Shown here piece by piece: positions 9,720 through 63,505 of a stretch of 64,000 nucleotides of DNA. A program made the translations under genes and the position numbers. Every line of letters starts with the position of its first letter. The first letter of the stretch is position 1. The DNA is from Eukaryota sp. GEM-RC1 (taxonomy: Eukaryota). Where the stretch lies: NCBI GenBank assembly GCA_040285855.1, contig JAUFOQ010000001.1:496001-560000 (forward strand), in the 5' to 3' direction. The notes under the pieces were generated by a model. The model had not been told where the DNA came from, did not search any database, and was given only the letters and a program-made list of their open reading frames with translations.

Positions 9720-10430
9720 ATGCCAGGATTGACTATGATTTTGTTAGAAGAAGAAGACCCCAAAGATTCTATTGTTATTAGCACTTTTCTGAGGTATATC
9801 GAGTTGCTCCTTCCAATAATGATGAAATCACGTTACGTTTTCAGAAACTGTCGGTTAAATTGATCGTTGAAACCCTTTTTAAGACCACAAAAGAACTTTT
9901 TGTAATGTTTTTGAAATAATATTGTCATAGCGTTTATTGTTCAACAAGTGCAAATAAAAATGGAGCTTGTTCTTCACCAGTGAACTGAAGTTTTCAATAC
10001 CAGCTGTAGATCCCAATTGGTTCACAATTCAGGTCAGCAATTGAATTGTTTAGTTGTACCTTATGTTTGACAGTGACAAAACCAAAATCCACAAAGTTGT
10101 ACAATTTGTTTCATCAAAATCAACAAGGTATTTTTGGGTTTCAACTGTATAAATACAATAAATTTCAGAAACTACAATTTGATAAGAGCGAAGCAACACC
10201 CATCGATACCAAATTTTATCACAGCTTTACCGTCATTCAAAGAACTCATTGCTATTAACGCTTTGGAAACAACAAAGGGAATTGTTTTTCCAAACTTGAA
10301 AAACTATTTAATCATAAAGTATGATTCAAAACGTTTGTTTATCTCCTCTTCAAAAAATCCCCACAATGTTTTCAGAAAATGTATTCAAAATCTAAAAAAA
10401 GTCAACTCTGTCATAAGAGACCACAAATGA
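9720..10430 (+). pseudogene. Fragmented ORF of unknown function (also near 25732 and 41949)
   Basis: A chain of short overlapping + strand ORFs from ATG MPGLTM..., with no recognised motif. Confidence 0.25.
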
Positions 10431-10719
10431 ACTCATGGCAAATAATGATGTGATTCTTACAATTCTCTTTATTTGATACACTGTATCTTCCTTTTTCACT
10501 ATTAATCTTTTGGTCTCCCAAAACTCTCCTAATATATCATATCTCTTTCTGACGTGACCTGTTCCTATTCTATGAACTCTATCACTTTTATTACACTGGT
10601 CGTCAATTAATTAACTTGACCGCGTTCTACTTTCTCCATTAGAGAATACAAGATGGACATGAGCATTACGAAATTCAGTTGATAAGTTGAGTAATTCTAT
10701 AACATAACCTATGTTATTA

Positions 10720-12184
10720 TTAACTTTCATCAACGATTTCAAGTACATGATCACTACGAAACAATGAAACAAATAAATAATAGTTACCACTACTTAATCT
10801 GGGAAGAGTTCCAGTAAGATTAATTGAAGAATTGCTTACCGATTTGATTGTCAAAGAGTAATTAATTAGATTTACATTGATTTCGAGTAATTCACTGGGA
10901 TTCCACTGATCACGGGTTCCTGAGAGACGACCAATCACACTACAATTACCCTTAAAATTGAAGGTACCATGAGCAGTCTGATAGCACCACCCAGTAACAC
11001 TAAACTTTGACTCGTCAATGACTCCAACAAAATGATGACCGATAAGCCCCTGGTACTTCAACTTCCAAGTATAAACATTACCTGGAAGAAGTGGACCTTC
11101 TCCCAAGATATTTCGAGAATCATTACCACTACTTGTAACAAAAACTGTCTTTCCATCCCCACTCACTTGTAACTGAGAATGTTTCCTAGTTTGAGAGAAT
11201 CTAAAAACATTCAATCCATTAGTTGCTTGATCAAGTAGTTTGATTTCAGTAATTGTCTTTTTTAGTTGTTCCATCTCTACTTGTAAATTGTGAATAATAT
11301 CTGAATAATTTACATTTAAAGTATGCATTTCTGATAATAAATTAGAGTTGGCGGTTTCTAAATTTGAGTTTGCTTTTTCAGAGAATCAATTTCAGTCTGC
11401 AAATCAGCAATGATTTGACTTTGTTCCAATAATTTCAAATTCTCTTTTTACTCAATGTGATTTCTTGATCAAGTCTACAGATTTGTTGATTTAATTTCAA
11501 AATTTCACCAACAAGATGATCATTCCTAACTTTCAAAGAAGATTCATCAGTCGAAGAAGTTGAGAAATCACCAGCAACAGCTTCCAAGTCCTGCACATTA
11601 TTCAAAACTTCAATTATTTGATTAATTTTTGGCCTACATAAAGGATCTGGATTCATACATTTCTGAATTACTTTCTGTACACACTCCGGTACAGATCTCC
11701 CAAAAGGTAATGCTTTCCCAGTGTTTTTAGCATCAATAATCGAAAGAGGATCTTCTTCACTAAAAGCAACCTTGTTTTCAAATAATTCATAAAGACAAAC
11801 TCCAAGTGAATAAATATCATTTAAAGGAGAAACAACATTTCTAAATTGTTCTGGAGCTGCATAAGTATAAGACACATCAAATGATCGAGGAACTAGAGTT
11901 GTAGCAGAAAGGTTTTTAGAGGTACCGAAATCAGCAACTCTAACGTGATCATCGACTAACAGAATGTTTGCTGGTTTTAGATCCCCATGAACTACAGACT
12001 TTAGGTGGAGACGTAAGTACATGGAGGACGTAAGCTATGAGAACGAAGCAGCCAGTGTATCAGAGTTAGGTTGCTTGGAAGAGATACTAGAAAAGGAGGA
12101 AACATTGAGCACTTAACTGCTAGCAAGTGTTACATTATCATCAGATGAACGACTACTCTTCAGTGGATGTTCAGGATTAGACAT
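10720..12184 (-). pseudogene. Chimeric gene: foreign 5' end fused to kinase C-lobe, coiled coil and SPRY domain
   Basis: HGDLKPANIL, DFG and APE are present, but the RING and N-lobe are replaced at 12011/12012. The ATG at 12184 is in frame, with two stops before the junction. The SPRY-like ORF is 10720-11328. Confidence 0.85.
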
Positions 12185-12246: not shown

Positions 12247-13575
12247 ATGTCATTCTCGCTTCCCCCAGCAGAAACTCTTTCTATCATTCTCGATGAACCC
12301 TCTTTGTGTAACCAAACCATTTCATTCGGCGGGGAATCCATCGAGGTGAACAAATCTGTCCTTGCTGTGCACTCAACGTACTTCCGATCCCTCTGGTTCT
12401 TAGAGTTTGGGGATAAACTTGAGAACCCCATCGACTTCTCCCATCTTCCCGTCGATTCCGACAACTTCTTCGCTTTCCTCAAGTCCTTCTTTGGAAAGTC
12501 ATTCACCCTCAACGAAAGCAACGCCTATAACTTTTTCTACCTCGTCCACTACTTCCAAGTGGATAAACTCATTCACCACGTGGAAAACCACCTAAACACC
12601 CATCTTGTAACATGGGCTTGGTTAAAACCGTTCATTAAAGAAGCAAGTGAAAGAAATGACTTGAGAGCTCTGGATTTCATTGGTCCTTTCTTTTCCAAAA
12701 TTGATGACCTGTTGATTGATGACGTGATGGCAATCACTACTGAAGGGTTTAAAACTCTTGTAAAATACTGCACTTGCACTGAATCACTGTCGTGGTTTAT
12801 TAAATCAATGGTGGAGTCAATTTTGAATCAAGATTTTGATTTCAAAGAATTTGTAAATGTTTTGAATTCTTTTTCAATTGAAGTTTTTCATATGAACAAT
12901 GGAATCAAAAGTTGTTTATTCCTTTAAAAAATGTTGAAAAATTGGAACCCGATTTGATGAAGTTTTTGTTTACAAGAGTAAAAGATCGTTGTGTGGACTC
13001 TTTAGTGAATGAAAACTGTAATTTAGTTTCGGATATTAACAAATTACAAAGTGAAATTGAAGAATTAAAGAAGTTAGCTGAAGATAATCAAGCAAAAATG
13101 ATTAAATTCTCTCAAACTAAGAAACATTCTGAGTTACAAGTTAGTGGGGATAGAAAGAGAGTTGTTGTTGGAAATGGTGATGATCTTGTGTATAGAAATA
13201 TATTGGGAGAAGATCCACTTCTTCCAGGTAATAATTATACTTGGAAGTTGAGGTACCAGGGGACTACTGATTGTCTTTTGTTGGAGTCATTGACGAGTCA
13301 AAGTTTAGTGTTGATGGTGATTGTTTTCAGAGTGCTCACTGTTTTGAAAATGATGGTGATCGCATTCATGGATCTTTTCAGGAACTCGTGCTCAATGGAA
13401 TCCTGGTGAATTACTCGAAATCAATGCAAATTTAATTAATTACACTTTGACAATCAAATCCGTGAGTAATTCTTTAATTAATCTTACTGGAATTCTTCCC
13501 AGATTAAGTAGTGGTAATTATTATCCGTTTGCTTTGTCATGTTTTAGTAATCATGTACTTGAAATCGTTGAATAA
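12247..13575 (+). CDS. BTB/POZ - coiled coil - SPRY/B30.2-like protein (frameshifted in homopolymers)
   Basis: BTB motifs VNKSVLAVHSTYFRSL and HYFQVDKL; coiled coil DINKLQSEIEELKK; SPRY-like YTWKL, FVGV, NGELL-type strand and YYPF. Frameshifts fall in T-runs at ~12885, ~13277 and ~13375. Confidence 0.85.
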
Positions 13576-13724
13576 AGTTGATTTCATTTTCATTGTGCTA
13601 AGTCTCCTCATTTAAAGTAGTAATCAACTTAACTTGTCTTGAAGCTAATTCATGTAGAAGACGTCAATTGCTCGAAAATGACGTCTCTGTAGCTATGATG
13701 AAATAACTTATTTTAAATTTGATA

Positions 13725-14190
13725 CATACATCTAATAATTATTATCCTCAAAGACAGATTGCATAACTGGAAATTCTTACATTATTCTCATAATGTCTGC
13801 CAAGAGATAATAAAGCGCTAGATACGGAAGTCACCATACCTTTAGAAATAGCAAACTCAATTCGTTTTTTCCAAAATCTACAGTAACGTCAAACCTCAAT
13901 ATTCATATAGATTTCAAGTAAATAATATATTAAATATTTACAAACATCGATAGACATAACATCAGCAATAATGAGAGATCCATCTAGGTCATGAAATATT
14001 ACATCACCACGGCTATTTCCAAACAATTTGTCATCGTCCGTATCATCAAACAAACCAGCCAGAACTGATTCTAAAACGGAAACTATTCCATAAGATTTCC
14101 ACATATATACAATTGATCCCTATGCTGTTAGAAACATTCATTAAATTTGTGTTGCAAAAGTGGTATTTTTTCCTTAGCCATGTCAAGTCG
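13725..14190 (-). mobile_element. 3' fragment of CRE-like non-LTR retrotransposon (restriction-like endonuclease region), internally deleted
   Basis: SRGDVIFHDLDGSLIIADV motif; clear nucleotide homology to 56727-57600. Confidence 0.7.
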
Positions 14191-14584
14191 ATCATTATAA
14201 TCCAAGTTTTCGAAAATATTTGTTAGTTTTTGTTGTAATTTTTCAGACAAAACTGAATGTGAGTCAGACATCTTGCAAGTATTTCAGATATGTCAAAAGG
14301 TAATTTGATCAAGGCGGAAAGAATTAGGGTTAATAAGTGTATTAATAAGTGGATTGATGATGTACTAGCTGATAGTTGCGTGAACGTTGATCTAGATAGC
14401 ATAGATTATTGATTACCATTATAAAATGATAATGAAGTTTGCAACGCTGATGTGGGGTGCAGAAGTGGCAGAAAGAGAGGAAATTCTTTAAGTGTACCGG
14501 ACACATTCTATCAGTGCACACTCCCCAACCATGTGCGTTTATTAAGAGGTGACTGCATTTAGTTAATACTATTAACCATTCTCC

Positions 14585-30210: not shown

Positions 30211-30602
30211 ATTATAATCCAAGTTTTCGAAAATATTTGTTAGTTTTTGTTGTAATTTTTTCAGACAAAACTGAATGTGAGTCAGACATCTTGCAAGTAT
30301 TTCAGATATGTCAAAAGGTAATTTGATCAAGGCGGAAAGAATTAGGGTTAATAAGTGTATTAATAAGTGGATTGATGATGTACTAGCTGATAGTTGCGTG
30401 AACGTTGATCTAGATAGCATAGATTATTGATTACCATTATAAAATGATAATGAAGTTTGCAACGCTGATGTGGGGTGCAGAAGTGGCAGAAAGAGAGGAA
30501 ATTCTTTAAGTGTACCGGACACATTCTATCAGTGCACACTCCCCAACCATGTGCGTTTATTAAGAGGTGACTGCATTTAGTTAATACTATTAACCATTCT
30601 CC

Positions 30603-32659: not shown

Positions 32660-33075
32660 CAGTGTTCGAAGACACGCGTGGACACGTTTGGACACGGACA
32701 CGGTGTCATTTCAAAAACACGCAAAAAGACACGGCGTGTGTACGTGTTTTTCTGCAAAAACCTAGAAAACATCGGAAGTACCTTTAACAATAGACTACAA
32801 TGCTATCAAAAAGTGGCAAAAATACTGACACATTGCGCTCTCAATCAACTCGACAGAACCACAGAATCCAAGATTCAGTGGTGAGATGTCAGTTAAAGGC
32901 CAGAATTGGCCCAAAACAATGTTTGTATAATCAAACTCTGCATCATGGATCAGAAACTTTTTTTCAAAAAAACACGCAAAGACACCCAAAAGACACATCA
33001 AAGACGCCGTGTGGACACGCGTGTTAACAGCGACACGGTGTCTTTTAAAAAACATGTGGGAAATTTCGAACACTT
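32660..33075. mobile_element. Complete 416-bp hAT-type MITE
   Basis: TIRs cagtgttcgaa / ttcgaacactt; perfect 8-bp TSD gtatgcaa (32652-32659, 33076-33083); GACAC subterminal repeats. Confidence 0.9.
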
Positions 33076-33934
33076 GTATGCAAATGGTTAAGCAAGAAAT
33101 TTATTCGCTAACATTTCTGGTTTAACCATGTAAAACTATCACATTATTAATGATAAACTCCAGATAGACTTTACTTAATGGATATACATGCAATTAGGTA
33201 TTGACAATTTGTTGAGTACCTTTAACCGCACATGTTACCTAAGAAACAACTTCTAATTAACTTGAACAGTTGTTAACCAACAATACATAGCCAAGCATTT
33301 CATCTCCTAAAAAATTGCAACATTATGATCTTAGACAACCACATTACGATGAGATTATTCTAAGTTAATGTCACAAGTATCAAAATTTTTCAACATTTAA
33401 GGAGGACAAATATTCTTGTTTCATCAACTCATTGTAGTATGTTATAACTTGTTCCCTGAGTGTTATACTATAGTTAGATGGGTGTATAATGTAGATTAAA
33501 TGACACGTTCACATTTCATAACCAATGATTTAATTGACAACTAACAGACTCTAAACCTGTTAGTTAGTTATTTTAAAGTGTGTGAGTAGAAGTATGTTGT
33601 ATAATAAAACAAAAGTCTTAACGACATATATCTTGCTTAAGGCAATATATATTTTGCCTACTTGGAAATATGATAAGTTCACATTTCATAACCAATGATG
33701 GACGTGACGTCTACAACTTTCTAAACACGTTTTCCTACTGTTGCATGGGGTTTTGGCAAAAGCTTTGTGTATGAAGAATGGAGAATACAAAAACCTATAT
33801 TTCTACTCATGCATCTTACATTTATCAGGAAAAATAGTAACAATATATGAATGAAATTCATTTCTAGACACATACAATGGTGTCTGTTCAAAAATAGACA
33901 CTTAACAAATTTCTTCTCACACACACTTTACAAA

Positions 33935-42949: not shown

Positions 42950-44773
42950 TTAACTTTCATCAACGATTTCAAGTACATGATCACTACGAAACAATGAAAC
43001 AAATAAATAATAGTTACCACTACTTAATCTGGGAAGAGTTCCAGTAAGATTAATTGAAGAATTGCTTACCGATTTGATTGTCAAAGAGTAATTAATTAGA
43101 TTTACATTGATTTCGAGTAATTCACTGGGATTCCACTGATCACGGGTTCCTGAGAGACGACCAATCACACTACAATTACCCTTAAAATTGAAGGTACCAT
43201 GAGCAGTCTGATAGCACCACCCAGTAACACTAAACTTTGACTCGTCAATGACTCCAACAAAATGATGACCGATAAGCCCCTGGTACTTCAACTTCCAAGT
43301 ATAAACATTACCTGGAAGAAGTGGACCTTCTCCCAAGATATTTCGAGAATCATTACCACTACTTGTAACAAAAACTGTCTTTCCATCCCCACTCACTTGT
43401 AACTGAGAATGTTTCCTAGTTTGAGAGAATCTAAAAACATTCAATCCATTAGTTGCTTGATCAAGTAGTTTGATTTCAGTAATTGTCTTTTTTAGTTGTT
43501 CCATCTCTACTTGTAAATTGTGAATAATATCTGAATAATTTACATTTAAAGTATGCATTTCTGATAATAAATTAGAGTTGGCGGTTTCTAAATTTGAGTT
43601 TGCTTTTTCAGAGAATCAATTTCAGTCTGCAAATCAGCAATGATTTGACTTTGTTCCAATAATTTCAAATTCTCTTTTTTTACTCAATGTGATTTCTTGA
43701 TCAAGTCTACAGATTTGTTGATTTAATTTCAAAATTTCACCAACAAGATGATCATTCCTAACTTTCAAAGAAGATTCATCAGTCGAAGAAGTTGAGAAAT
43801 CACCAGCAACAGCTTCCAAGTCCTGCACATTATTCAAAACTTCAATTATTTGATTAATTTTTGGCCTACATAAAGGATCTGGATTCATACATTTCTGAAT
43901 TACTTTCTGTACACACTCCGGTACAGATCTCCCAAAAGGTAATGCTTTCCCAGTGTTTTTAGCATCAATAATCGAAAGAGGATCTTCTTCACTAAAAGCA
44001 ACCTTGTTTTCAAATAATTCATAAAGACAAACTCCAAGTGAATAAATATCATTTAAAGGAGAAACAACATTTCTAAATTGTTCTGGAGCTGCATAAGTAT
44101 AAGACACATCAAATGATCGAGGAACTAGAGTTGTAGCAGAAAGGTTTTTAGAGGTACCGAAATCAGCAACTCTAACGTGATCATCGACTAACAGAATGTT
44201 TGCTGGTTTTAGATCCCCATGAACTACAGACTTTAGGTGGAGAAACTTAACAGCTTGACATAGCTCCTTAGCGTATCTCAGAGTTGATGACGTGAGAGAG
44301 TTTGGGGAGGGGATGGAAGAAGAAGCTCTTTCCATTACGATGCCAATGGAATCTTGGAAGACTGAGATTCCAAAGACACGAAGTATAGAAGGATGGTTGA
44401 GGTTGATAAGGAGATTCAGTTGTTGTTGAAGTTTGAGCTTTCCTTCCTGCGTTAGAGACAACATTTTGACGGCAACGGGGAGATCGAACCATGTAGCAGC
44501 GTATACAATAGTAAAACCTCCTTCCGCAATCCTTTCTCCAAGAATGATCTCGTCGGGTGGAATTTGGGGGCAGAGATCGCCATGTAGAGAAGCTCGGACA
44601 AGATCCTGCACAGAACAGTTCACCTTTCTCTCCTTAAGGCAGTTGGTAGCACAGAGGGGACATTTATTCAGTTCAGCTGAACATTTAGAGCAAGCAGTGT
44701 GACCTTCGCCACAGATGAGTAGGGGAAGACGGTTGGAGAGATTGAAAGACTCACAGCAGTGGAAGCATTCCAT
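42950..44773 (-). CDS. RING finger - TKL-like protein kinase - coiled coil - SPRY-like protein (~607 aa; two compensating homopolymer indels)
   Basis: RING CFHC...CGEGHTACSKC...CPLC; kinase AEGGF, VAVK, HGDLKPAN, DFG, APE. ORFs 43634-44773 and 42950-43558 are in the same frame and are bridged by coiled coil KENLKLLEQSQIIADLQTEIDSLKK if the T7 (~43675) and T5 (~43604) runs are each T6. Confidence 0.88.
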
Positions 44774-45468
44774 GTGTTAAAGACCTTTTGATTTTGGACA
44801 AACACATTTTCTTACCTTGCATGTATTGAAACCCCTTTGTGTGGTGTAATGATGGAATTCTTTATCTGAAACCTCCCTTTAAGCATATCTCTACAAGTCA
44901 AACATGATAGTAACAAACAAATCTAGTGGAATTAATCATAAATTGTTGAGTTATCAAGTGACTGCCGTTTAGTTAAGAGTATAGTATAGTGTGTTGAATT
45001 TTCAAAATGGTTTCACGAAAATTGTATAATTGTAGATGGTCTATGTACAATTTTCGATGTCCGATTTAATCAATAATAACTCCAATATTAACGAAATTTT
45101 TCGATTATGTAATACGTTCTGAAATTTGGTTTTCAAAATTAGTATATTGAAAAATGCAGCTCACAAAACGTTGTCTTGCAAGAATTAAAGTGGATTACTG
45201 ATGTGACTGTTAAAGAAATTACAATGATCCCAGTGAATGGTTAACAGAAGCAGAATGTCTGTCATGATTGGCAAACTTGGGGACAAAACATTTTGGAAAA
45301 ACCCAAAATTGAATTGATAATTTCCAAGGTGTTGTATTGTTGTAGTATTGTGTAGATTGATATTAGGTACAAGTCCTCCCCCGTACTTCCAAAGAGGTTC
45401 TCTTTTTACTGTAAAAGTTCTACTCTAGTTGTAAAAACGAATTAGTAAGTCATACAAGTTATCATGAT

Positions 45469-54620: not shown

Positions 54621-54871
54621 TTTTTAGTTCTGATATCATTACATGATAATGAAAGTAAGTTTTGTTATTTAAATCATTGAAAAACGGGTGTTTTAATCAA
54701 TACATGTTTTGGTAACCTTTTGCACTAACATGTTGCCACAATCGCCTTTGCAATGAGCATCTTAGATTAAAAGAAGGTTAAACAAACTGGTTAGCCTTTA
54801 CCAAGGAAGCAAGCAAGATGTATAACAAAAACTACGTAATACTACTGAATACATACCACGTCACTCTACGG
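54621..54871 (-). repeat. Retrotransposon 5' leader; diverged direct repeat of 58084-58333
   Basis: Colinear matches such as aggttaaacaaactggtta and accaaggaagcaag; lies directly downstream of the LTR on the minus strand. Confidence 0.8.
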
Positions 54872-55063
54872 TGTCAACACTACTCTTTCTTCTTCCGTTT
54901 GGTGTTGGTCCGTGCACAGCGTAAAGGGAAAAGTATTTATAAATAGAAGTTCTAAGACTTGAACAGTGGAAGGATGTATCTTCACTACTACGAGTGTTAT
55001 TTGGAGATGAGAGTGGTTCTCAGTTCTTAACACTAGATGTAAACTCGACACAATAGACGTACA
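54872..55063 (-). repeat. LTR (TGT...ACA) inserted into an integrase frame
   Basis: The minus strand reads TGTACG...GTTGACA and contains tatttataaata. It interrupts HSDNGREFTNRV and is homologous to 62928-63086. Confidence 0.72.
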
Positions 55064-55714: not shown

Positions 55715-55869
55715 TTACTCAATTTAATGGGGCATTGCATGTAGACAACTCTCACTGACCTCAATAAATATCAACAGTTTTATTATTCTAAATTTTTGTT
55801 AAGGTGAGGTTTAATCAAATATGGAGATTGATAGATTTGATTCTCTTTCCAACCACCATGGTCAAAGAT

Positions 55870-56720
55870 ATCAGAGCAATTAAATCGCATAAAATACTCC
55901 AGAATCACGTGTTGATACGCAATAGGACGCAACTCACTGTAGTGTCTTCTATTTGCACGGACAATTTTACGAAATTTTGAAAAAAGGTTTCAATCGGATT
56001 AGAATCCGGACAATAAGGTGGAAGAATATGGAATGCCTCTCCTGCTTTACGCATACCATGTATGATATTGTCATGGTTGTGGATATTACAACCGTCCAAC
56101 ACTATACAACTTCGTGGACCACCAAAAGTATAAAGAATTCCATGAGAAATAAGAGAGGTTAAAAATGAGATGAACTGAGATCGGTTGAAGTCGCCTTCTT
56201 ATATATGTGCCATAACATATCCATTGGTACCAATAGCAACACAAGCCGAGATCGGATGAGAAACTTGAGTAGACATGAGCTTATGTACTGGAGCTCCTTT
56301 AGGGGACCAAACACTGGTTGGTTCAAAGTCTCCAGCCCTGAAAGTTATTTCATCAACAAACAGCAGACGACGTTGTTGGATGGGTAGTCACTAGAAGTCT
56401 GTTCTCAAAAGCGACTATTAAGCTCCGTTTGGCTCTCTTGACTAATATTTGGCATCGCTTCCAAGAGTATCCTGAGTGTATTAAGAAACGATGTATTGTA
56501 CTGACACTAACACTTTTATGCCGTTGATGAAGCAACAATTCTACGATTTCCCTAAGATAAAGCTCCGGTGTTTCCTCAAGAGTTGTGAGGATGAAGTCTC
56601 TATCATTATCATCTAATATGGATATGTTCCTAAGATGGGATTCTTGCGGTTTGAACGCTTGTCTTACCCATCGTAATAGAGCAGATTGATTGATCGCGTA
56701 GTAAGAAACAACAACACTAC
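55870..56720 (-). pseudogene. Tc1/mariner-IS630 family DD34E transposase, frameshifted and 5'-truncated
   Basis: HTH region PELYLREI...VSVSTIHRFL...GYSWKR; catalytic FVDE, VLDGCNIH and LPPYCPDSNPIE, with 34 residues between D and E. Confidence 0.88.
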
Positions 56721-56726
56721 AGTGTA

Positions 56727-57600
56727 CATACATCTAATAATCAATATCCTCAAAGTCCAGATTGCCTAACTGGAAATTTTCACCTACCTTATCTTCATAA
56801 TGTCTGCCAAGAGATAATAAAGCACTAAATACAGAAGTCACCATACCTTTAAAGAAAGCAAACACGATTCGATTTTTCCAAAATCTAAGTCCTAGATGTT
56901 TTTTCTTTTACAATCTGCACAAAGATTTCAAGTAATGATGTCGCAGATTCACCTAAAGAACCGTACAGTGAAAATACAAAAGTGTACAACACGTAATTCG
57001 AGTGTGAAGCCGAATTCAATAATTTCAATTTAGCACAATATTTTTGCATTTTAAATTTTTCACCAATCAACAAGGGGTTTTTAGCATTAGATTTAGCAAG
57101 TTTCTTGTTGGAATCATTACAAACATCGATAGACATAACATCAGCAATAATGAAAGATCCATCAAGACCAGGAAATATGACATCACCACGGCTATTTCCA
57201 AACGATTTGTCAACATCTGTATCATCAAACAAACCAGCCAGAACTGGTTCTAAAAAGGAAACTATTCCATAAGATTTACACATACAATATAATTGATCCC
57301 TTACTGAATCATGAACCTTACTTCTAAAAAGAAATAAAACGGTTACAATTCAATAAATGTGTAGGTGTTACAGATTGCCCACATTGGCATTTCAAATTAT
57401 GTGGAAGGTTATCAGGCCAAATATATGACCGTAAACGCATGTTTAATGACCAAGAGTTATCATCAAGAAGAAGACCGTAAACTTGAGGGATTTGAGTAAT
57501 CAGACATGAAGGAGAGCTATTAGAAACACCCATTAAGAAATTTGCAAAAGCGGGATTTTTTTCCTTGGCCATGCCAAGTCGAGCATTCTAATTCAAGCTT
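56727..57600 (-). mobile_element. CRE-like (RLE-type) non-LTR retrotransposon 3' portion
   Basis: Knuckle CQCGQSVTPTHLLNC, HDSVRD, endonuclease SRGDVIFPGLDGSFIIADV and FSLYGSLG; RT absent. Confidence 0.78.
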
Positions 57601-57659
57601 TAAATCTAACATATCTAATCTCACATATACACCTAAAAAAAATTTCACAGGGGAGTTTG

Positions 57660-57900
57660 AGCGGATATAGTTTTTGTTGTTTCTTTGACATACGTCACAA
57701 CCGTCGGTGTAGTTTTGAACATAGTCAACAAGGGATTTCCAGTGAAAACAATGTTTCTTCAGGTAATTGATGGTGTCCTTTGTAGTTGGGTGTCCGGTAA
57801 ACAAGAAGTAGTACAGATCAAGGGCTTTTTTAAGATGGGTGGGTACAGCTGTTTTGAACTGAGTAGTCCTCAAGTGTTTCATCGTTTTCTATCTGATTGA
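57660..57900 (-). pseudogene. Gypsy integrase zinc-binding domain fragment
   Basis: GHPTTKDT...FHWKSLVDYVQNYTDGCDVCQRN. Confidence 0.8.
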
Positions 57901-58083
57901 TCACATCGGAGTCTTTTGGTGAAGTAACACGGGACAGCATATCCGCCCAACAAAAGTAGTGACTCCAAAAACGTTTTGGAAAGTTTTGAGAAGATTCAAA
58001 GTTGCTATGACGTTTGATAGGGTCTGGTAGCGTTGGATAGGGAAATTGAGATGTCCGAGATTTTGGGTAAGTTTACCTGATCT

Positions 58084-58333
58084 GTTTAGTTCTGCTATCA
58101 TCACATGATAATAAAAGTAAGTTTTGCTATTTAAATAATTGAAAAACGGCTGTTTTAATCAATCCATGTTTTTTAGAAAAAACCTTTTGTATCAACATTA
58201 TTAACGCTTGTGCAATGAGCATCTTCGAATTAAAAGTAGGTTAAACAAACTGGTTATCTTTTACCAAGGAAGCAAGAAAGATTTTTAAAAACTACTCAAT
58301 ACTGCTGAATACATACACGGTCACTCCACGGTG
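58084..58333 (-). repeat. Retrotransposon 5' leader, paralogous to 54621-54871
   Basis: Direct repeat ending tcactccacggtg versus tcactctacggtg. Confidence 0.8.
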
Positions 58334-58510
58334 ATAACCCTAACTTAGGGAGTAAATAAATGATGAATAAGGAATTAATTATGAATCGAATCTTAATGAA
58401 TATATAAATACTATTACTAAACATACAATCAATAAAATATGTGATGCTGCGAATATTTTCAATGCTGAAAATTATAAAACAACCACACAATTAGTTGAGA
58501 TACAAACTTA

Positions 58511-59226
58511 TTATTCTGAATATATTTCTGGCAAAAAATCACGAGACGATATGAAGACATAAATAAACTCAGGATCACTTAATAATCGATGTGATTGGAA
58601 TGAAAATGGTTCCTTTCTTTTCTTCATTATTCTCATGATGAGTTCTTCATTGTCCCGAATATTTTCAGGTAATGATTCATAAAAAATCAAAATAGGGATA
58701 TTTTTTTAAAATACTTTTAATAAACTTGAGGTTTCTTTTTAATTCATCTGAGACATGGATATAATTTATGCTATGTTCCTTACATGCAGCTAAAGCCTTT
58801 TTAAAATCATTTCGTACTTCATAGGGTGCGTAAATAAATTGATTTGTTCCTTCTTTATATATGCACAGTTGTTCTTCTGATAATAACATTTGGTTACGTG
58901 TATGTACTTCCTTAATAATATCAAGATCATCATATTTTGGAAAATGTAAAATGTTGTTAATGTTTGCATATATTGTTTTTTTAACAAAATCCAGATCTTT
59001 TTTTAATTCATCTGAACAATAAATGATTTTTAAATGTTGGTGATAATACTGATATACAACAATCTTTGCCATTTCTTAATTCTTCTGGACACAATGCCAA
59101 ATTATGTCCATTTAGTTTGATTGCATGTTGTGCAATAATTTTATTTTCCCTCAATATTTCAGGAAAATTTTCAAATTTATGATAATCCAAATGTTGAACA
59201 ACATCATAAACTGAAATAGTTTCCAT
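58511..59226 (-). pseudogene. DUF4116-like repeat protein, frameshifted
   Basis: Repeats FPEILRENKII, CPEELRN, CSDELKKDLDFV, APYEVRND, VSDELKRNLKFI and LPENIRDNEELI. Confidence 0.75.
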
Positions 59227-59361
59227 GATCTTTTCTTGAGAAAATAATAGTTTTTACCTTTTTATTGAAATTTGATAAAGGACTAGAACGACGCAAGAAG
59301 ACCATCGATCCCCTGAGAACGACGCAAGGAGGGACCCGCTTCTGAGAACGAACCCGATTGG

Positions 59362-60587
59362 TCATTGATTTCGACGAAGCGTTCCTCTGGCAACGACTGA
59401 AGTCCCCTCTTGATAATAATTTTGGGTTTTAAAAGAAGAATAACTCTTATAAATAAAAATAATAATAATTATTAGAACAATTACTAATAATAAAATAAAT
59501 AAATACTTTTTAGGCGATTTATCTTTATCGTTTAACGACTCTTCATTTTGAGAATCTCCTTCAATTACTGAATCGTCAATCAGAGGAAGTTCTTCAATAT
59601 CGTTATCCAATTCTTCCTCCTCCTCATCATCCATATCGATATTACCAAAAGCAATATCATATAACTCGTAAACTAAAAGATTTTCTTTACCCTCAGCAAC
59701 CCTCAGTCCTCTTCCAATAATTTGTTCATATAACGTTTGTGAATAGGTGGTCTGATTAAATACAATCATATCCACTCTCGGATTATCAAAACCCGTGGTT
59801 AATACTCCAACATTACTAATAATCTGAGTCTCGCCGGAATTAAATTTATCCAACATTGGTTTACGATTTTTAGTCTTGCCATCTAAATGTACAGCAGGAA
59901 TTCCATTTGCAATTTGTTTACTAACTGCTTCTTTTGAGTCCTTTATTGTTTTATTAAAAATTAATATAGTTTTACGATTACTCTCACTAATTATTTTAAC
60001 TAAATTGTCATGAGAATCTTTTATTTTTTCATAGGATTAATCGAATTATGTTTGCTCTTTATAGAAGCATTGCCAAGTATTTATGTTCCATTTATTCGAA
60101 GTTGTATAGGGACAATTCTCGTGTTGATGTGGAGAATTTAACTTCTTTCATTTTCTGAAACAGCATGTATTAATTTATTGTTGCAAATAAACTCTTCTCA
60201 TATTTTCTTTAATTGTTTATTTGCCTGATGCACTTCATCAATTATAAAATAATCTATATTACCATGTTTAAGAATTTCACCAACTCTATTTTTTCTTGAA
60301 TCTGATAATGATACTCTACCGCCAATAATTATTCTTTTATTATAATCTCCAATATCAGCTTTAACAATACCAACATCTAAACCTTTTAATTTATCCATTG
60401 TTTGATTTAGTAATTCATCAGAATAAACTGATATTAATACACGGTTATTTGAACCTAATTTTCTAATCAATTCACTAAAGATTACTGTTTTCCCAGAACC
60501 TGTTGGTAAACTAATTATCCCAGATTCACCTGGTTTTAATTTTAATGACTTTTCTATTGCCGTTTTTTGATAATCACGCAACTTCAT
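59362..60587 (-). pseudogene. SF2 DExH helicase (ResIII/YejH/Irc3-like) with acidic linker and C-terminal hydrophobic helix; central part disrupted
   Basis: LRDYQ, PTGSGKT, IIDEVH, VGVLTTGFDNPRVD, YEQIIGRGLR; tail KKYLFILLLVIVLIIIIIFIYK; frameshifts between 60200 and 59900. Confidence 0.88.
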
Positions 60588-60608
60588 TTTAGTTACAAGA
60601 AACAAAAC

Positions 60609-60910
60609 CTTTTTGCTGTTTCAATTTACGGACGTTTAGGAAAAGTGCAATGAATTTTTTAAACGATTTCGGAAAAATCGTAAAAAATAGGATGAACAAA
60701 CGTTTTGATCATATGTTATGGTTGAATCGGATCGTTTTTACTGTTTTTAAAACAGTTCCCCTAATCATCTCCAAAGCTTTATTAGCAGTGAGTGCCTTTT
60801 ATGAGGACAAAGCTGTTGTAAGGTTTGATAGCGACGGGTGTTGTTTTAATGACATCAAATTTTAGTTGTTTGATCTATTACATTTATAATAAAGACTAGT
60901 ACCAAAAAAA
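60609..60910 (+). mobile_element. 5'-truncated CRE-like non-LTR insertion with A tail and 12-bp TSD
   Basis: TSD aagaaacaaaac at 60597-60608 and 60911-60922. Translation VSIYGRLGK...WLNRIVF...YEDK is homologous to 56800-56990. Confidence 0.85.
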
Positions 60911-60941
60911 AAGAAACAAAACTTTTAAAAAAAATAATAAT

Positions 60942-61718
60942 TTATAAAGCATTTACTCCATATTTCTCACACATTCTTTTATAGAATTTCTCATTGGACT
61001 TTATGCAACAATATTTATAATTAGCATAACATACACCAATTGCAAATTCACAAAAATCTTCAATACTTCTTAATTCAAAACTACAATATTGAAAAGCTTT
61101 CCAGTTTATAAGAATTAATTGTTTAAAAAATTCTTCATTATCACTTAGTTTACTCCAAGATAAAATTCTTACATCATATTTGATATATTCTTCATCATTT
61201 ATAACGAATTCTGGAAAATCTTCTCCAATATCACATTTTGAATCTAATAATTTTCCACAAAGCTCTTTTGTTAATAATTCCTTTGGACAATATTCCATTA
61301 GTTCAGGTTCATATAATATGCATTTTTTTAAATTTTCAGGAGTAATTTGATGAATGTATTTTTTAATTAATTCTTTTGGTAATTGATAAATATTTACAGT
61401 ATTAACAATATATTCATTCAATTCATTATTTAATTTAATCCATTTAATGCGATCCCAATCAATCGAGATACATTTCTTATAGAATTCATTATCAAATACT
61501 ACATCACAAAATTCTAAATGTTGAGGATTATCAAAGAATATTTCTTCACAGAATTTTCTATCATTACGTAGTTTTTCTGGTAACTGTTTAAAGTTCTTTG
61601 CAAATATTTCGTTAAAACAACCATAAAGATCCATGGCTTCTTTTAATTTGTAATATCCAAGAATTTCTTCAAGTGTGAAATCTCTAATGATTTGAAATAA
61701 TTCGTAATAACCTCCCAT
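60942..61718 (-). CDS. DUF4116-like repeat protein, intact, 258 aa
   Basis: LPEKLRNDRKFC, MEYCPKELLTKELC, LSDNEEFF and AFQYCSFELRSIEDFC repeats. Confidence 0.8.
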   Translation of the reverse strand: MGGYYELFQIIRDFTLEEILGYYKLKEAMDLYGCFNEIFAKNFKQLPEKLRNDRKFCEEIFFDNPQHLEFCDVVFDNEFYKKCISIDWDRIKWIKLNNELNEYIVNTVNIYQLPKELIKKYIHQITPENLKKCILYEPELMEYCPKELLTKELCGKLLDSKCDIGEDFPEFVINDEEYIKYDVRILSWSKLSDNEEFFKQLILINWKAFQYCSFELRSIEDFCEFAIGVCYANYKYCCIKSNEKFYKRMCEKYGVNAL

Positions 61719-61806
61719 TTGCTTTTAAAAAAATCATTTTTTTATTCAATTTCGGATTCTTCACTCGAAATTCCATATTCTTCACTCAAAAATCTACCAC
61801 GTATTT

Positions 61807-62508
61807 TCATACAATTATTTGGTATGAGCATATAGTAAAAACTAGATAAAACTTTTTCAAACCATATGGAACTTCCATATTATTTAATGATTGCCGTATT
61901 CTATTTTCATTCATATCTCTATGAATTCCATCAGAATGTAATACATAATCAATAGTTATGTAACCATTACAGATATTTGCAAGTAATCTTATACCAAATA
62001 TCCCTTCCATAAACGTTAATTCTATATCGATATTTAAACTATATAATTCTTTAATAATTCTTGGAAATTCTGAAGTTTTATCAGATATAGTTAATGTTAT
62101 TTATTTAGTTTTAAGTTGTTTCAATACATCAAATATATATTTACTATAAGACATTATGTTAATAAACACAATAGTATTAGAATAAATATTTGGATTATTA
62201 ATATAAAAATTAATATATTCATTTAAGTGAATAACTTTGAAACATATAGGTTTACGAGAGAAAAGAGTATCAATCCATATTGTATCAACAAAACAAGTTG
62301 TTTCGGGAGTTTTTAATTTTTCTTTAATATTTTCCATTATAGGATGTTCCATCCAATATCTACCTCCTTCTTCAAATACATCAGCTTTTATTATTCTATG
62401 CTTTTTGTGTATATTCATGAATCTTTCTGATGCATATCAATATTTTTGACATTTGCTATGTTTGAAAACACATTGGAGTAATGATTCAGTTAAAGTCAAA
62501 TGATCCAT
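61807..62508 (-). pseudogene. Unknown protein with weak F-box-like N-terminus; one stop and one frameshift
   Basis: The ATG at 62508 (MDHLTLTESLLQCVFKH...Y*YASERF) is in frame with ORF 62101-62418; the gene continues in 61807-62010. Confidence 0.5.
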
Positions 62509-62569
62509 TTAATAAAAAGAAAAATCATTTTTATGTATTTATTCAAATGAAAAAAATATAAAACCATAA

Positions 62570-62908
62570 ATGGGTGGCGTGAAAGTTTTTGGCAATCATC
62601 GAATACAAGTATATTTACCAACCAGAGTAAAAGATCCAGAATTAATAAATCATTTCTTCCTGAAGAAAACAAGAAATCACCCAAGAGTATTTCCTAAACA
62701 TGGATATACATTTATTGGAAAACACTATTCCAGACTCGAAAATGCATTAGTAACTCAATCAATGTTTTTATTTACCAAGGGACATAATGATGATTTGTGT
62801 CAAGAAATAGAAGACTATTTGGCATCTAAAAATCTTTTATGTTCTTGGTCAGCTGGAGGAAATACTAATGCATTTATTAATAATGAAAATGGTGGTTACA
62901 AAATATAA
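62570..62908 (+). CDS. Orphan protein, 112 aa
   Basis: Intact ATG-TAA ORF in very AT-rich DNA, divergent from the 62508 gene and ending 8 bp before the terminal CCCTAGGG. Confidence 0.65.
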   Translation: MGGVKVFGNHRIQVYLPTRVKDPELINHFFLKKTRNHPRVFPKHGYTFIGKHYSRLENALVTQSMFLFTKGHNDDLCQEIEDYLASKNLLCSWSAGGNTNAFINNENGGYKI

Positions 62909-62927
62909 AATAAATACCCTAGGGTTA

Positions 62928-63086
62928 CACTACTCTTTCTTGTTCCGTGTGGAAGGAGGTATCTTCTTTGTCTTTGACTTGAAGTGCCTTAAGAGTTATT
63001 CATTAATAAGAGTGTTCTTCAGTGATGAGAGTGATTCCCAAGTCCTAATACCAGAAGTAAACTCAACCAGGAACTCATAGTGATCA
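62928..63086 (-). repeat. LTR split by the island (paralogue of 54872-55063)
   Basis: Shares cactactctttct, gtggaagga.gtatcttc, gatgagagtg and gtaaactc. The minus strand starts TGATCAC and would end GTTATCA. Confidence 0.72.
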
Positions 63087-63215
63087 CCCGTTGATGTTAT
63101 GATCTAAGATTTTTGCAACGACATATTTAGAAGCGTCTTTGGCAGCCACAGTAGTTGCTTCGTCTATAGCGTTTATAGCAAATGGAGAAACAACTAATTC
63201 TTGATTAGTGACGAG

Positions 63216-63325
63216 CAGGGACTGTCAAAAATATAATGCAATATATTGCAGGATCAAAAGATTTGCAATACAGTATTGCAATACTGCAATATATTGCAAT
63301 AATGGGAAGCAATATAAATATTGTT
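63216..63325. mobile_element. hAT-type terminal fragment
   Basis: cagggactgtcaaaa followed by TGCAATA repeats like those at 14585. Confidence 0.55.
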
Positions 63326-63505
63326 GAGTAAATTATTGATTGTACAAATTCCATCAATAACTCATAACATCATCATTAGGCATCATCCAAGTTGACTAGT
63401 TTCTGATTAACCATCTTGCGAACCAAACTAATGTCCCAAAACTCTCTGTTTACAGAAAGAAATAGTTGATTGGCAAGTCTTCGATCAGATAAGTTGTGTC
63501 GTGAC

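What the first reader, a model, noticed from the sequence alone, without database searches (positions are those of the whole stretch)
58338..62924. Transposase-less 4.6 kb virus-like cargo element with CCCT...AGGG ends and an in-window empty site
Seen: removing 58338-62927 restores gtgATAAcactactctttct, colinear with the paralogous LTR end gtgTCAAcactactctttct (54871-54890), so this is a precise insertion. The island is far more AT-rich than its flanks, intronless and tightly packed. It encodes an SF2 helicase, two DUF4116-like proteins, an F-box-like gene and an orphan, with no transposase, integrase or capsid that I can recognise. Known: piggyBac ends are TTAA|CCCT...AGGG|TTAA, and insertion at non-canonical ATAA sites can leave ATAA on one side and TTAA on the other; here the flanks are ATAA and TTA, one A short. 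Inference: a non-autonomous or deleted member of an undescribed virus-transposon hybrid family (conceptually like Teratorn), or an integrated transpoviron or Polinton-like-virus relative.
Basis: partly seen in the sequence, partly recalled or inferred. Interest (0 to 1): 0.9.

Follow-up and report, generated by a model that had tools for sequence, protein, structure and literature searches.

The report
Virus-like gene cassette with transposon ends
A 4.6-kb block of five virus-like genes, with no recognisable enzyme for moving itself, sits cleanly inserted in a repeat of a protist genome and is decaying; its short ends suggest it was likely pasted in by a piggyBac-type transposase made elsewhere, but no second copy or parent element was found.

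Summary
The insertion is real. Both flanks are colinear with an empty paralogous repeat at 54.6-55.05 kb, and the block is 27% GC against at least 33.5% in any same-sized stretch to its left. The ends are CCCTA...TAGGG (5-bp inverted repeat), each end is itself a short palindrome, and the flanks are ATAA and TTA. That fits piggyBac rules loosely, but it also reads as the TTAGGG telomere repeat in chromosome-end orientation, and a blunt insertion explains the junctions equally well. Cargo: a RadD/Irc3-type helicase closest to helicases of large AT-rich bacterial phages, two DUF4116 genes and two orphans. The F-box label was not supported. New here: the block is old and decaying (nested retrotransposon fragment with a 12-bp target duplication, two in-frame stops, helicase short of motif III), and two genes share an upstream 13-mer whose core is a giant-virus early-promoter motif. 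No transposase, integrase, polymerase or capsid was recognised. Copy number and a parent could not be tested: no genome or reads were held. Verdict: likely a dead, non-autonomous cargo transposon of virus-like origin; the Teratorn-like hybrid family stays an unproven lead.

The parts
54623..55049 (.). Empty paralogue of the host repeat; TCAA at 54874-54877 is the position of the insertion
   Evidence: blastn; junction alignment; abuts an rve fragment
58085..58333 (.). Left half of the interrupted host repeat
   Evidence: 81.2% to 54623-54882
58334..58337 (+). Left flank ATAA (candidate 4-bp target)
   Evidence: sequence
58338..58350 (+). Left end: CCCTA terminal repeat inside the palindrome CCCTAA-C-TTAGGG; 58335-58344 is the longest in-phase (CCCTAA)n match in the window (10 bp)
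58511..59226 (-). DUF4116 repeat gene A, in three frame pieces (two frameshifts)
   Evidence: PF13475 E 2.7e-5, 2.1e-10 and 2.3e-4
59362..60587 (-). RadD/Irc3-type SF2 helicase, broken between the two domains, about 22 codons short, motif III not found; acidic linker and a predicted transmembrane tail
   Evidence: ResIII E 2.1e-17, Helicase_C E 1.9e-14; RadD best NCBIfam; spacing 87.7 against 109-110 codons, tail hydropathy 3.5
60597..60922 (+). Nested 5'-truncated retrotransposon-like fragment 60609-60910 with A-tail, between 12-bp direct repeats 60597-60608 and 60911-60922
   Evidence: the 12-mer occurs only at these two places; 72% to 10148-10343; protein-level match to the tails at 10172-10300 and 56734-56880
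60942..61718 (-). DUF4116 repeat gene B, open 258 aa
   Evidence: PF13475 E 5.3e-8; no homologue found
61729..61741 (-). AAAAATGATTTTT motif; the AAAAATGAT core ends 14 nt before the ATG of gene B
61807..62508 (-).
   Evidence: 0 Pfam families; no viral relative; model pLDDT 36.7
62520..62532 (-). Second AAAAATGATTTTT motif; core ends 15 nt before the ATG at 62508, in a 61-bp divergent spacer
62570..62908 (+). Orphan gene, open 112 aa; its stop lies 16 nt from the right end
   Evidence: no homologue; model pLDDT 40.7
62916..62924 (+). Right end: TAGGG terminal repeat (62920-62924) inside the palindrome ACCCTAGGGT (62916-62925)
62925..62927 (+). Right flank TTA (one A short of TTAA)
   Evidence: sequence
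62928..63067 (.). Right half of the interrupted host repeat

Best explanation
The block is a real insertion of five foreign genes into a host repeat, now decaying, and was likely pasted in as a non-autonomous cut-and-paste element by a TTAA-type (piggyBac-like) transposase supplied from elsewhere. Shown: the insertion, the junction letters, the foreign base composition, the gene content and the decay. Inferred: a transposase recognised the CCCTA...TAGGG tips and the palindromes that overlap them, cut at a 4-bp T/ATAA site and duplicated it; the right copy has since lost an A (by mutation or assembly error). Inferred: the cargo comes from a eukaryote-infecting DNA virus or linear plasmid that had itself picked up a bacterial-phage helicase; in that source the AAAAATGAT motif would be an early promoter and the DUF4116 solenoids protein-binding modules. 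After insertion the block was hit by a host retrotransposon and gathered stops and a deletion, so it is likely dead.
For: Colinear flanks and a 4-base gap at the target (4-bp target scores 33, duplicated TA 30). Both ends fit the piggyBac first-six-base motif C[CAT][CAT][TGA][TAG][TGA]; that survey also lists ATAA among rare targets, terminal repeats as short as 5 bp, and palindromic repeats overlapping the terminal repeat (PMC5381638, passages). The paralogue's TCAA is one change from TTAA. Single-base indels run at 1.2-2.1 per kb between the window's 16-kb tandem copies, so a lost A is possible. Virus-like source: about 88% coding without the nested piece, GC3 12-21% against 25-47% in 5 host ORFs, no Shine-Dalgarno-like word before any of 5 ATGs (only 9 bases could be read before the helicase), sigma-70-like sites 25 against 35.5 expected, a shared 13-mer before 2 of 4 genes compared (22 of 2,000 shuffles) whose core matches the putative early promoter of the giant virus AaV (PMC5917014, passages). 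Helicase sister to AT-rich large-phage-type helicases (support 89/89; L002 is a complete 159-kb virus record with integrases nearby).
Against: The terminal repeat is only 5 bp and no subterminal repeat is shared (best end-to-end inverted match is the 8 bp that include the flanks); the average piggyBac repeat is 14 bp. Neither flank is TTAA and they are not identical; a blunt insertion gives the same empty site with no extra change (score 33). The right end leaves 16 nt between a stop codon and the tip. No piggyBac transposase family was hit among the window's ORFs scanned (63 of 83 of at least 72 aa, others). No viral hallmark gene was recognised. AAAAATGAT is not enriched in the window as a whole (4 found, 3.6 expected) and the motif test was chosen after seeing it. 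The helicase placement is not starred and the C-terminal tree is weak (SH-aLRT 81, long branch, quick tree only). One copy only; no relative of the block in the viral or metagenome scans.
Confidence: 0.45

Rival explanations
1. Repair capture of a linear, telomere-tipped piece of viral or plasmid DNA: the fragment carried or was given short TTAGGG-phase ends and was joined into a double-strand break, using 1-2 bases of microhomology, with no transposase.
For: The left tip is a 10-bp in-phase (CCCTAA)n match, the only one of 8 bp or more in the window; the right tip is an 8-bp (TTAGGG)n match, one of three (the other two are one site in the tandem repeat); orientation is that of a linear chromosome. 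A metamonad of the lineage to which a host kinase points has TTAGGG telomeres (PMC11316075, passage). The blunt model needs no later change at either junction.
Against: Only about 1.5 repeat units per end; seven of those bases come free with any TTAA|CCCT end; the inner halves of both palindromes are not explained by telomerase; no loss of target bases is seen.
Confidence: 0.25
2. A satellite element integrated by a site-specific (tyrosine or serine) recombinase of a helper virus: the palindromes at both ends are binding sites and the TA-rich core is the crossover region.
For: Both ends are palindromes built from the same CCCTA half-site; the gene runs almost to the right tip; the target is near-palindromic (GTG-TCAA-CAC in the paralogue). 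The helicase's phage neighbours include integrases.
Against: No recombinase gene recognised in the block; half-sites are only 5-6 bp; no circular form could be tested.
Confidence: 0.12
3. A transposase-less cassette of an IS630/Tc1-mariner type element (TA target), such as those carried by giant viruses, with tips ACCCTA...TAGGGT.
For: TA flanks both ends without any change (sequence); virus-borne mariners with TA duplications carry passenger genes (PMC3627910, passages); a Tc1/IS630-type transposase relic lies 2 kb away (DDE_3 E 9e-11); earlier notes describe such cassettes (e1-5600626, a lead).
Against: The rebuilt empty site is one base shorter than the paralogue (30 against 33); a 6-bp repeat is very short for this family (from knowledge); I did not compare the tips with the named elements.
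Confidence: 0.1
4. An ordinary horizontal capture of a bacterial or phage fragment, with chance resemblance of the ends to transposon tips.
For: Helicase 43-47% identical to bacterial or phage-type proteins; DUF4116 also occurs in large phages (earlier notes e1-8105493, a lead).
Against: Chance of the 8-bp inverted ends about 0.15%, before counting the palindromes; no ribosome-binding words; none of 109 helicase loci holds a match to another island gene.
Confidence: 0.08

Closest known systems
piggyBac superfamily, non-autonomous derivatives (PMC5381638, passages read)
   Same: C-rich tips matching the first-six-base motif; TTAA-like flank (ATAA is a listed rare target); palindromes overlapping the tips; size within 1.7-8.5 kb
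   Different: 5-bp repeat only, unequal flanks, no transposase or remnant, five unrelated foreign genes
Teratorn (piggyBac-alloherpesvirus fusion of teleosts; PMC5601938 and PMC6431247, passages read)
   Same: Idea of virus-like genes between piggyBac-type ends
   Different: Teratorn is 41-182 kb, multicopy, with 18-bp repeats, an active transposase and intact polymerase, terminase and capsid genes; none of these was recognised here
[quoted passage not shown]
   Same: Compact DNA transposons of giant viruses carrying passenger genes
   Different: They encode a transposase, have TA duplications and nuclease or methylase cargo; this block sits in a cellular genome and fits a 4-base target better
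Telomere-bearing elements (TBE) of Oxytricha (PMC4724952, passages read)
   Same: About 4 kb; tips that read as the host telomere repeat
   Different: TBEs have 78-138-bp inverted repeats, ANT duplications, a transposase and thousands of copies
Transpovirons and Polinton-like viruses (recalled, no call)
   Same: Small AT-rich, gene-dense elements of protists and their viruses, with a helicase
   Different: Transpovirons have long inverted repeats and an SF1 helicase; Polinton-like viruses have capsid, packaging ATPase and often an integrase. Here the helicase is SF2 (RadD-like) and none of the others was recognised

Membership tests
piggyBac superfamily | Duplicated TTAA target | tested here: inconclusive
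   ATAA left, TTA right, TCAA in the paralogue; 4-bp model and blunt model tie
piggyBac superfamily | Tip motif C[CAT][CAT][TGA][TAG][TGA] | tested here: met
   CCCTAA left, CCCTAG right (motif from PMC5381638)
piggyBac superfamily | Terminal inverted repeats, usually 12-19 bp (range from 5) | tested here: inconclusive
   5 bp only; no shared subterminal repeat
piggyBac superfamily | piggyBac transposase in cis | tested here: not met
   no such family hit by any island ORF
piggyBac superfamily | Cognate transposase in trans and sister copies | not testable with these tools
   no genome held, no runs listed
Teratorn-like virus-transposon fusion | Transposase joined to core virus genes (polymerase, terminase or ATPase, capsid) | tested here: not met
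   Pfam, PHROGs and NCBIfam scans give only helicase and DUF4116; two orphans remain unassigned
Teratorn-like virus-transposon fusion | Longer parent elsewhere in the genome | not testable with these tools
Polinton-like virus / Maverick | Jelly-roll capsid, packaging ATPase, integrase or protein-primed polymerase (features recalled) | tested here: not met
   no such family hit; orphan folds were too poor to add anything
Transpoviron | SF1 helicase and long terminal inverted repeats (features recalled) | tested here: not met
   helicase is SF2, RadD-like; repeat 5-8 bp
Tc1/mariner-IS630 cassette | Duplicated TA target | tested here: inconclusive
   TA on both sides, but the rebuilt site is one base short of the paralogue
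Telomere-bearing element (TBE) | Long inverted repeats ending in telomere repeat, ANT duplication, transposase | tested here: not met
   only the telomere-phase tips are shared
F-box protein (gene at 61807-62508) | N-terminal F-box domain | tested here: inconclusive
   0 Pfam families at E<=5 with X at the two stops; model unusable; no profile-profile search was possible

The most novel reading that the evidence does not exclude
The block is the deleted remnant of an undescribed family of integrating DNA viruses or linear plasmids of anaerobic metamonad protists that use piggyBac-type, telomere-like tips to enter the genome, drive their genes from giant-virus-type early promoters and carry a helicase taken from bacterial phages: a Teratorn-like fusion outside animals and a vehicle for bacteria-to-protist gene transfer.
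Probability: 0.2. Interest if true: 0.85.

Novelty: new variant of a known kind. Interest (0 to 1): 0.5.

Why it matters
Metamonad genomes are rich in genes taken from bacteria (from knowledge), but the vehicles are rarely caught. Here a phage-type helicase and other foreign genes sit between defined tips with the empty site in view, which gives exact probes for finding the parent. If sister copies and a longer parent exist, it would be a virus-transposon fusion outside fish; my searches for such a report returned nothing relevant, though the library is incomplete. If it is a single repair capture, it is a well-preserved but ordinary fossil of gene transfer.

Tried and rejected
No whole genome is held, so copy number is open. 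No sequencing run was listed for 57800-63400; this is no evidence either way. Orphan 112 aa: no word-sharing candidate; 2 HMMER hits among 1.84 billion, both long repetitive proteins, rejected as noise; PDB sequence best E 0.53; single-sequence model pLDDT 40.7, no viral fold match at E<=0.001, best solved-structure Z 5.8, uninformative; the Atlas could not read it. Gene B: 0 of 345 candidates, none in viral contigs or named phages. Gene A middle piece: none in plasmids. 233-codon orphan: nothing. Left-end 26-mer: 0 viral matches; 15-mer: 9 matches, 0 of 9 share any other island sequence. Genome-contig scan with P0001: 1 distant locus. DUF4116 in the records behind L001 and L002: 0 of 2, with a control that also did not ring. 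Exact look-ups: 1 of 12 island ORF variants is in the collection, a cluster of one from one contig, too insensitive to count copies. Rfam: 3 hits, all below gathering score. Papers on ATAA or non-TTAA piggyBac targets: 0 with all terms; the supplement of PMC5381638 with the individual termini could not be read and may hold closer tips. Earlier notes on this genome: none. An alternative genetic code for the in-frame stops was set aside: host ORFs are long under the standard code and the two stops are different codons.
Full report
Setting. The window is eukaryotic and packed with mobile-element debris: MULE, Gypsy-type integrase, Tc1/IS630-type and hAT fragments, and a 16-kb unit repeated about 2.75 times at 99.5-99.7% identity. 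A host kinase ORF falls in a 90% cluster with a protein labelled from a metamonad protist; I take the host to be of the Barthelona-Skoliomonas group (the link between label and group is recalled). No genome is held and no run was listed, so everything below rests on one copy.

The insertion. Left of 58338 the sequence matches 54623-54882 at 81.2%. Right of 62927 it resumes the same repeat: 26 bp at 92% directly at the junction and 69 bp at 76.8% further on; the right flank scores 58 against the paralogue and at most 28 in 279 random stretches. The block is 27.3% GC against 38.3%, below every same-sized stretch to its left (minimum 33.5%). The host repeat abuts an integrase-core fragment but I found no sign that it is an LTR.

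The ends. Inside the flanks the inverted repeat is CCCTA...TAGGG, 5 bp; with the flanking TAA and TTA it is 8 bp, and that is the best inverted match between the terminal 146-148 bp. Such an 8-bp match arose in 0.15% of 200,000 random boundary pairs. Each end is also a palindrome: CCCTAA-C-TTAGGG and ACCCTAGGGT. Five boundary models were aligned to the paralogue: a 4-base target keeping ATAA scores 33, a blunt insertion giving the same site 33, the right TTA alone 32, duplicated TA 30, blunt removal of all 8-bp ends 30. So a 4-base target is favoured slightly over TA, but a duplication is not shown. A piggyBac survey (PMC5381638, passages) gives a first-six-base motif that both ends fit, lists ATAA among rare targets, reports repeats from 5 bp (mean 14) and palindromic repeats overlapping the tips. 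The same letters are the TTAGGG telomere repeat in chromosome-end orientation: 10 bp on the left, the only (CCCTAA)n match of 8 bp or more in the window, and 8 bp on the right, one of three. A genome paper on the lineage reports TTAGGG telomeres in one of its members (PMC11316075, passage). Seven of these bases follow from any TTAA|CCCT end, so the two readings overlap and cannot be split on one copy.

The cargo. Five genes cover about 88% of the block once the nested piece is left out, with GC3 of 12-21% against 25-47% in 5 host ORFs. Two are DUF4116 repeat genes and one an SF2 helicase, best matched to RadD among NCBIfam models, below cut-off. The helicase is 43-47% identical to proteins P0001, P0002 and loci L001, L102, and 39% to L002. 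In a tree of the N-terminal domain (the island plus the 40 best distinct of 100 hits) it is sister to these six (89/89, not starred); the C-terminal tree (40 of 62 hits, quick search only) agrees weakly. The three loci are 25-30% GC; L002 lies in a complete 159-kb virus record with integrase genes nearby. That their hosts are Firmicutes is my inference; no call names them. None of 109 helicase loci matched another island gene. The island helicase ends in an acidic stretch and a strongly hydrophobic 19-mer not seen in the four relatives aligned. The 233-codon gene has no Pfam family, so 'F-box' is unsupported; earlier notes of F-box/DUF4116 pairs in Naegleria (e1-677161) keep it as a lead only. 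The 112-aa gene has no relative in any search. No transposase, recombinase, polymerase or capsid family was hit.

A shared upstream motif. AAAAATGATTTTT lies before gene B and before the 233-codon gene, its 9-base core ending 14 and 15 nt from the ATG; its inner 11-mer occurs nowhere else in the window. Among four upstream 40-mers a common word this long arose in 22 of 2,000 shuffles; the test was chosen after seeing the motif. The core matches the putative early promoter of the giant virus AaV, AAAAATGA(T), one letter from the mimivirus motif (PMC5917014, passages). Against over-reading: the 9-mer is not enriched window-wide (4 found, 3.6 expected), and host promoters of this lineage are unknown to me. 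No Shine-Dalgarno-like word precedes any ATG and sigma-70-like sites are not in excess, so the block does not look like a freshly captured bacterial operon.

Decay. A 302-bp piece (60609-60910) with an A-tail sits between two copies of a 12-mer found only there; it resembles the tails of other host repeats at 10.2 and 56.8 kb, which I read as non-LTR retrotransposon ends from a recalled endonuclease motif (Pfam gave no family). It landed 9 bases before the helicase ATG. The 233-codon gene has two in-frame stops. The helicase has 87.7 codons between DExH and motif IV against 109-110 in four relatives, and no motif III was found in any frame. About four frameshifts are also present, but the tandem copies differ by 1.2-2.1 indels per kb, so assembly noise alone could give two to four here; the stops, the shortfall and the nested insertion are harder to blame on noise. 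The block is likely dead.

How it likely works. I commit, at 0.45, to a non-autonomous cut-and-paste element moved by a piggyBac-type transposase in trans, whose body came from a eukaryote-infecting virus or linear plasmid. The insertion, composition, genes and decay are shown; the enzyme, the target duplication and the viral source are inferred. The main rival (0.25) is repair capture of a telomere-tipped linear fragment, which needs no later change at the junctions but does not explain the inner palindromes. Recombinase integration (0.12), a TA-targeting mariner cassette as in giant viruses (0.10; PMC3627910, passages) and plain capture with chance ends (0.08) follow.

Comparison and novelty. 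It works like a passenger-laden non-autonomous DNA transposon; it fails membership of Teratorn-like fusions (PMC5601938, PMC6431247, passages), TBEs (PMC4724952, passages), transpovirons and Polinton-like viruses (recalled features) on what is present in the block. Paper searches for DUF4116 with transposon or giant virus gave one paper that mentions the domain only in a legend on viral gene transfers to dinoflagellates (PMC9651163, passage); searches joining piggyBac with protist cargo or Nucleocytoviricota gave two general reviews and nothing. PMC11707139 was read in passages and added nothing. I rate it a new variant of a known kind, interest 0.5: a clean, odd and testable fossil, whose weight depends on a genome-wide search that could not be run here.

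Noticed in passing
window 1-44243: A 16-kb unit (MULE transposase, decayed Gypsy-type element, kinase and BTB genes) repeated about 2.75 times at 99.5-99.7% identity, differing by scattered single-base indels: a recent amplification or a long-read assembly artefact. The third unit has an extra 194 bp at about 33032-33225.
   Followed up: partly
window 43634-44776 (-): The RING-kinase gene is whole only at the last repeat boundary; the two earlier units hold only its 3' part, next to an inverted pair of related domains at 10719-11204 and 13102-13582.
   Followed up: no
window 60597-60922, 10148-10343, 13723-14210, 56725-57601: A family of retrotransposon-like tails with no Pfam hit; the copy inside the island has a clean 12-bp target duplication and A-tail.
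   Followed up: partly
window 59207-59430: A GC-richer patch (36-41%) after the helicase's hydrophobic tail, with a short direct repeat; possibly another small insertion or a frameshifted tail.
   Followed up: no
window 55786-56733 (-): Decayed Tc1/IS630-type transposase (HTH and DDE_3 pieces) 2 kb left of the island.
   Followed up: no
window 14324-14332 and 30342-30350: TTAGGGTTA followed by A: the only other telomere-phase match and the only GGG|TTAA in the window (one site in the tandem repeat); could be the right tip of another element of the same kind.
   Followed up: no
L001:8001-9611, L002:8001-9344, L102:7320-8924, P0001, P0002: A small clade of RadD-like helicases in AT-rich large phage-like loci, with a shortened segment after the DExH motif shared with the island helicase.
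   Followed up: partly
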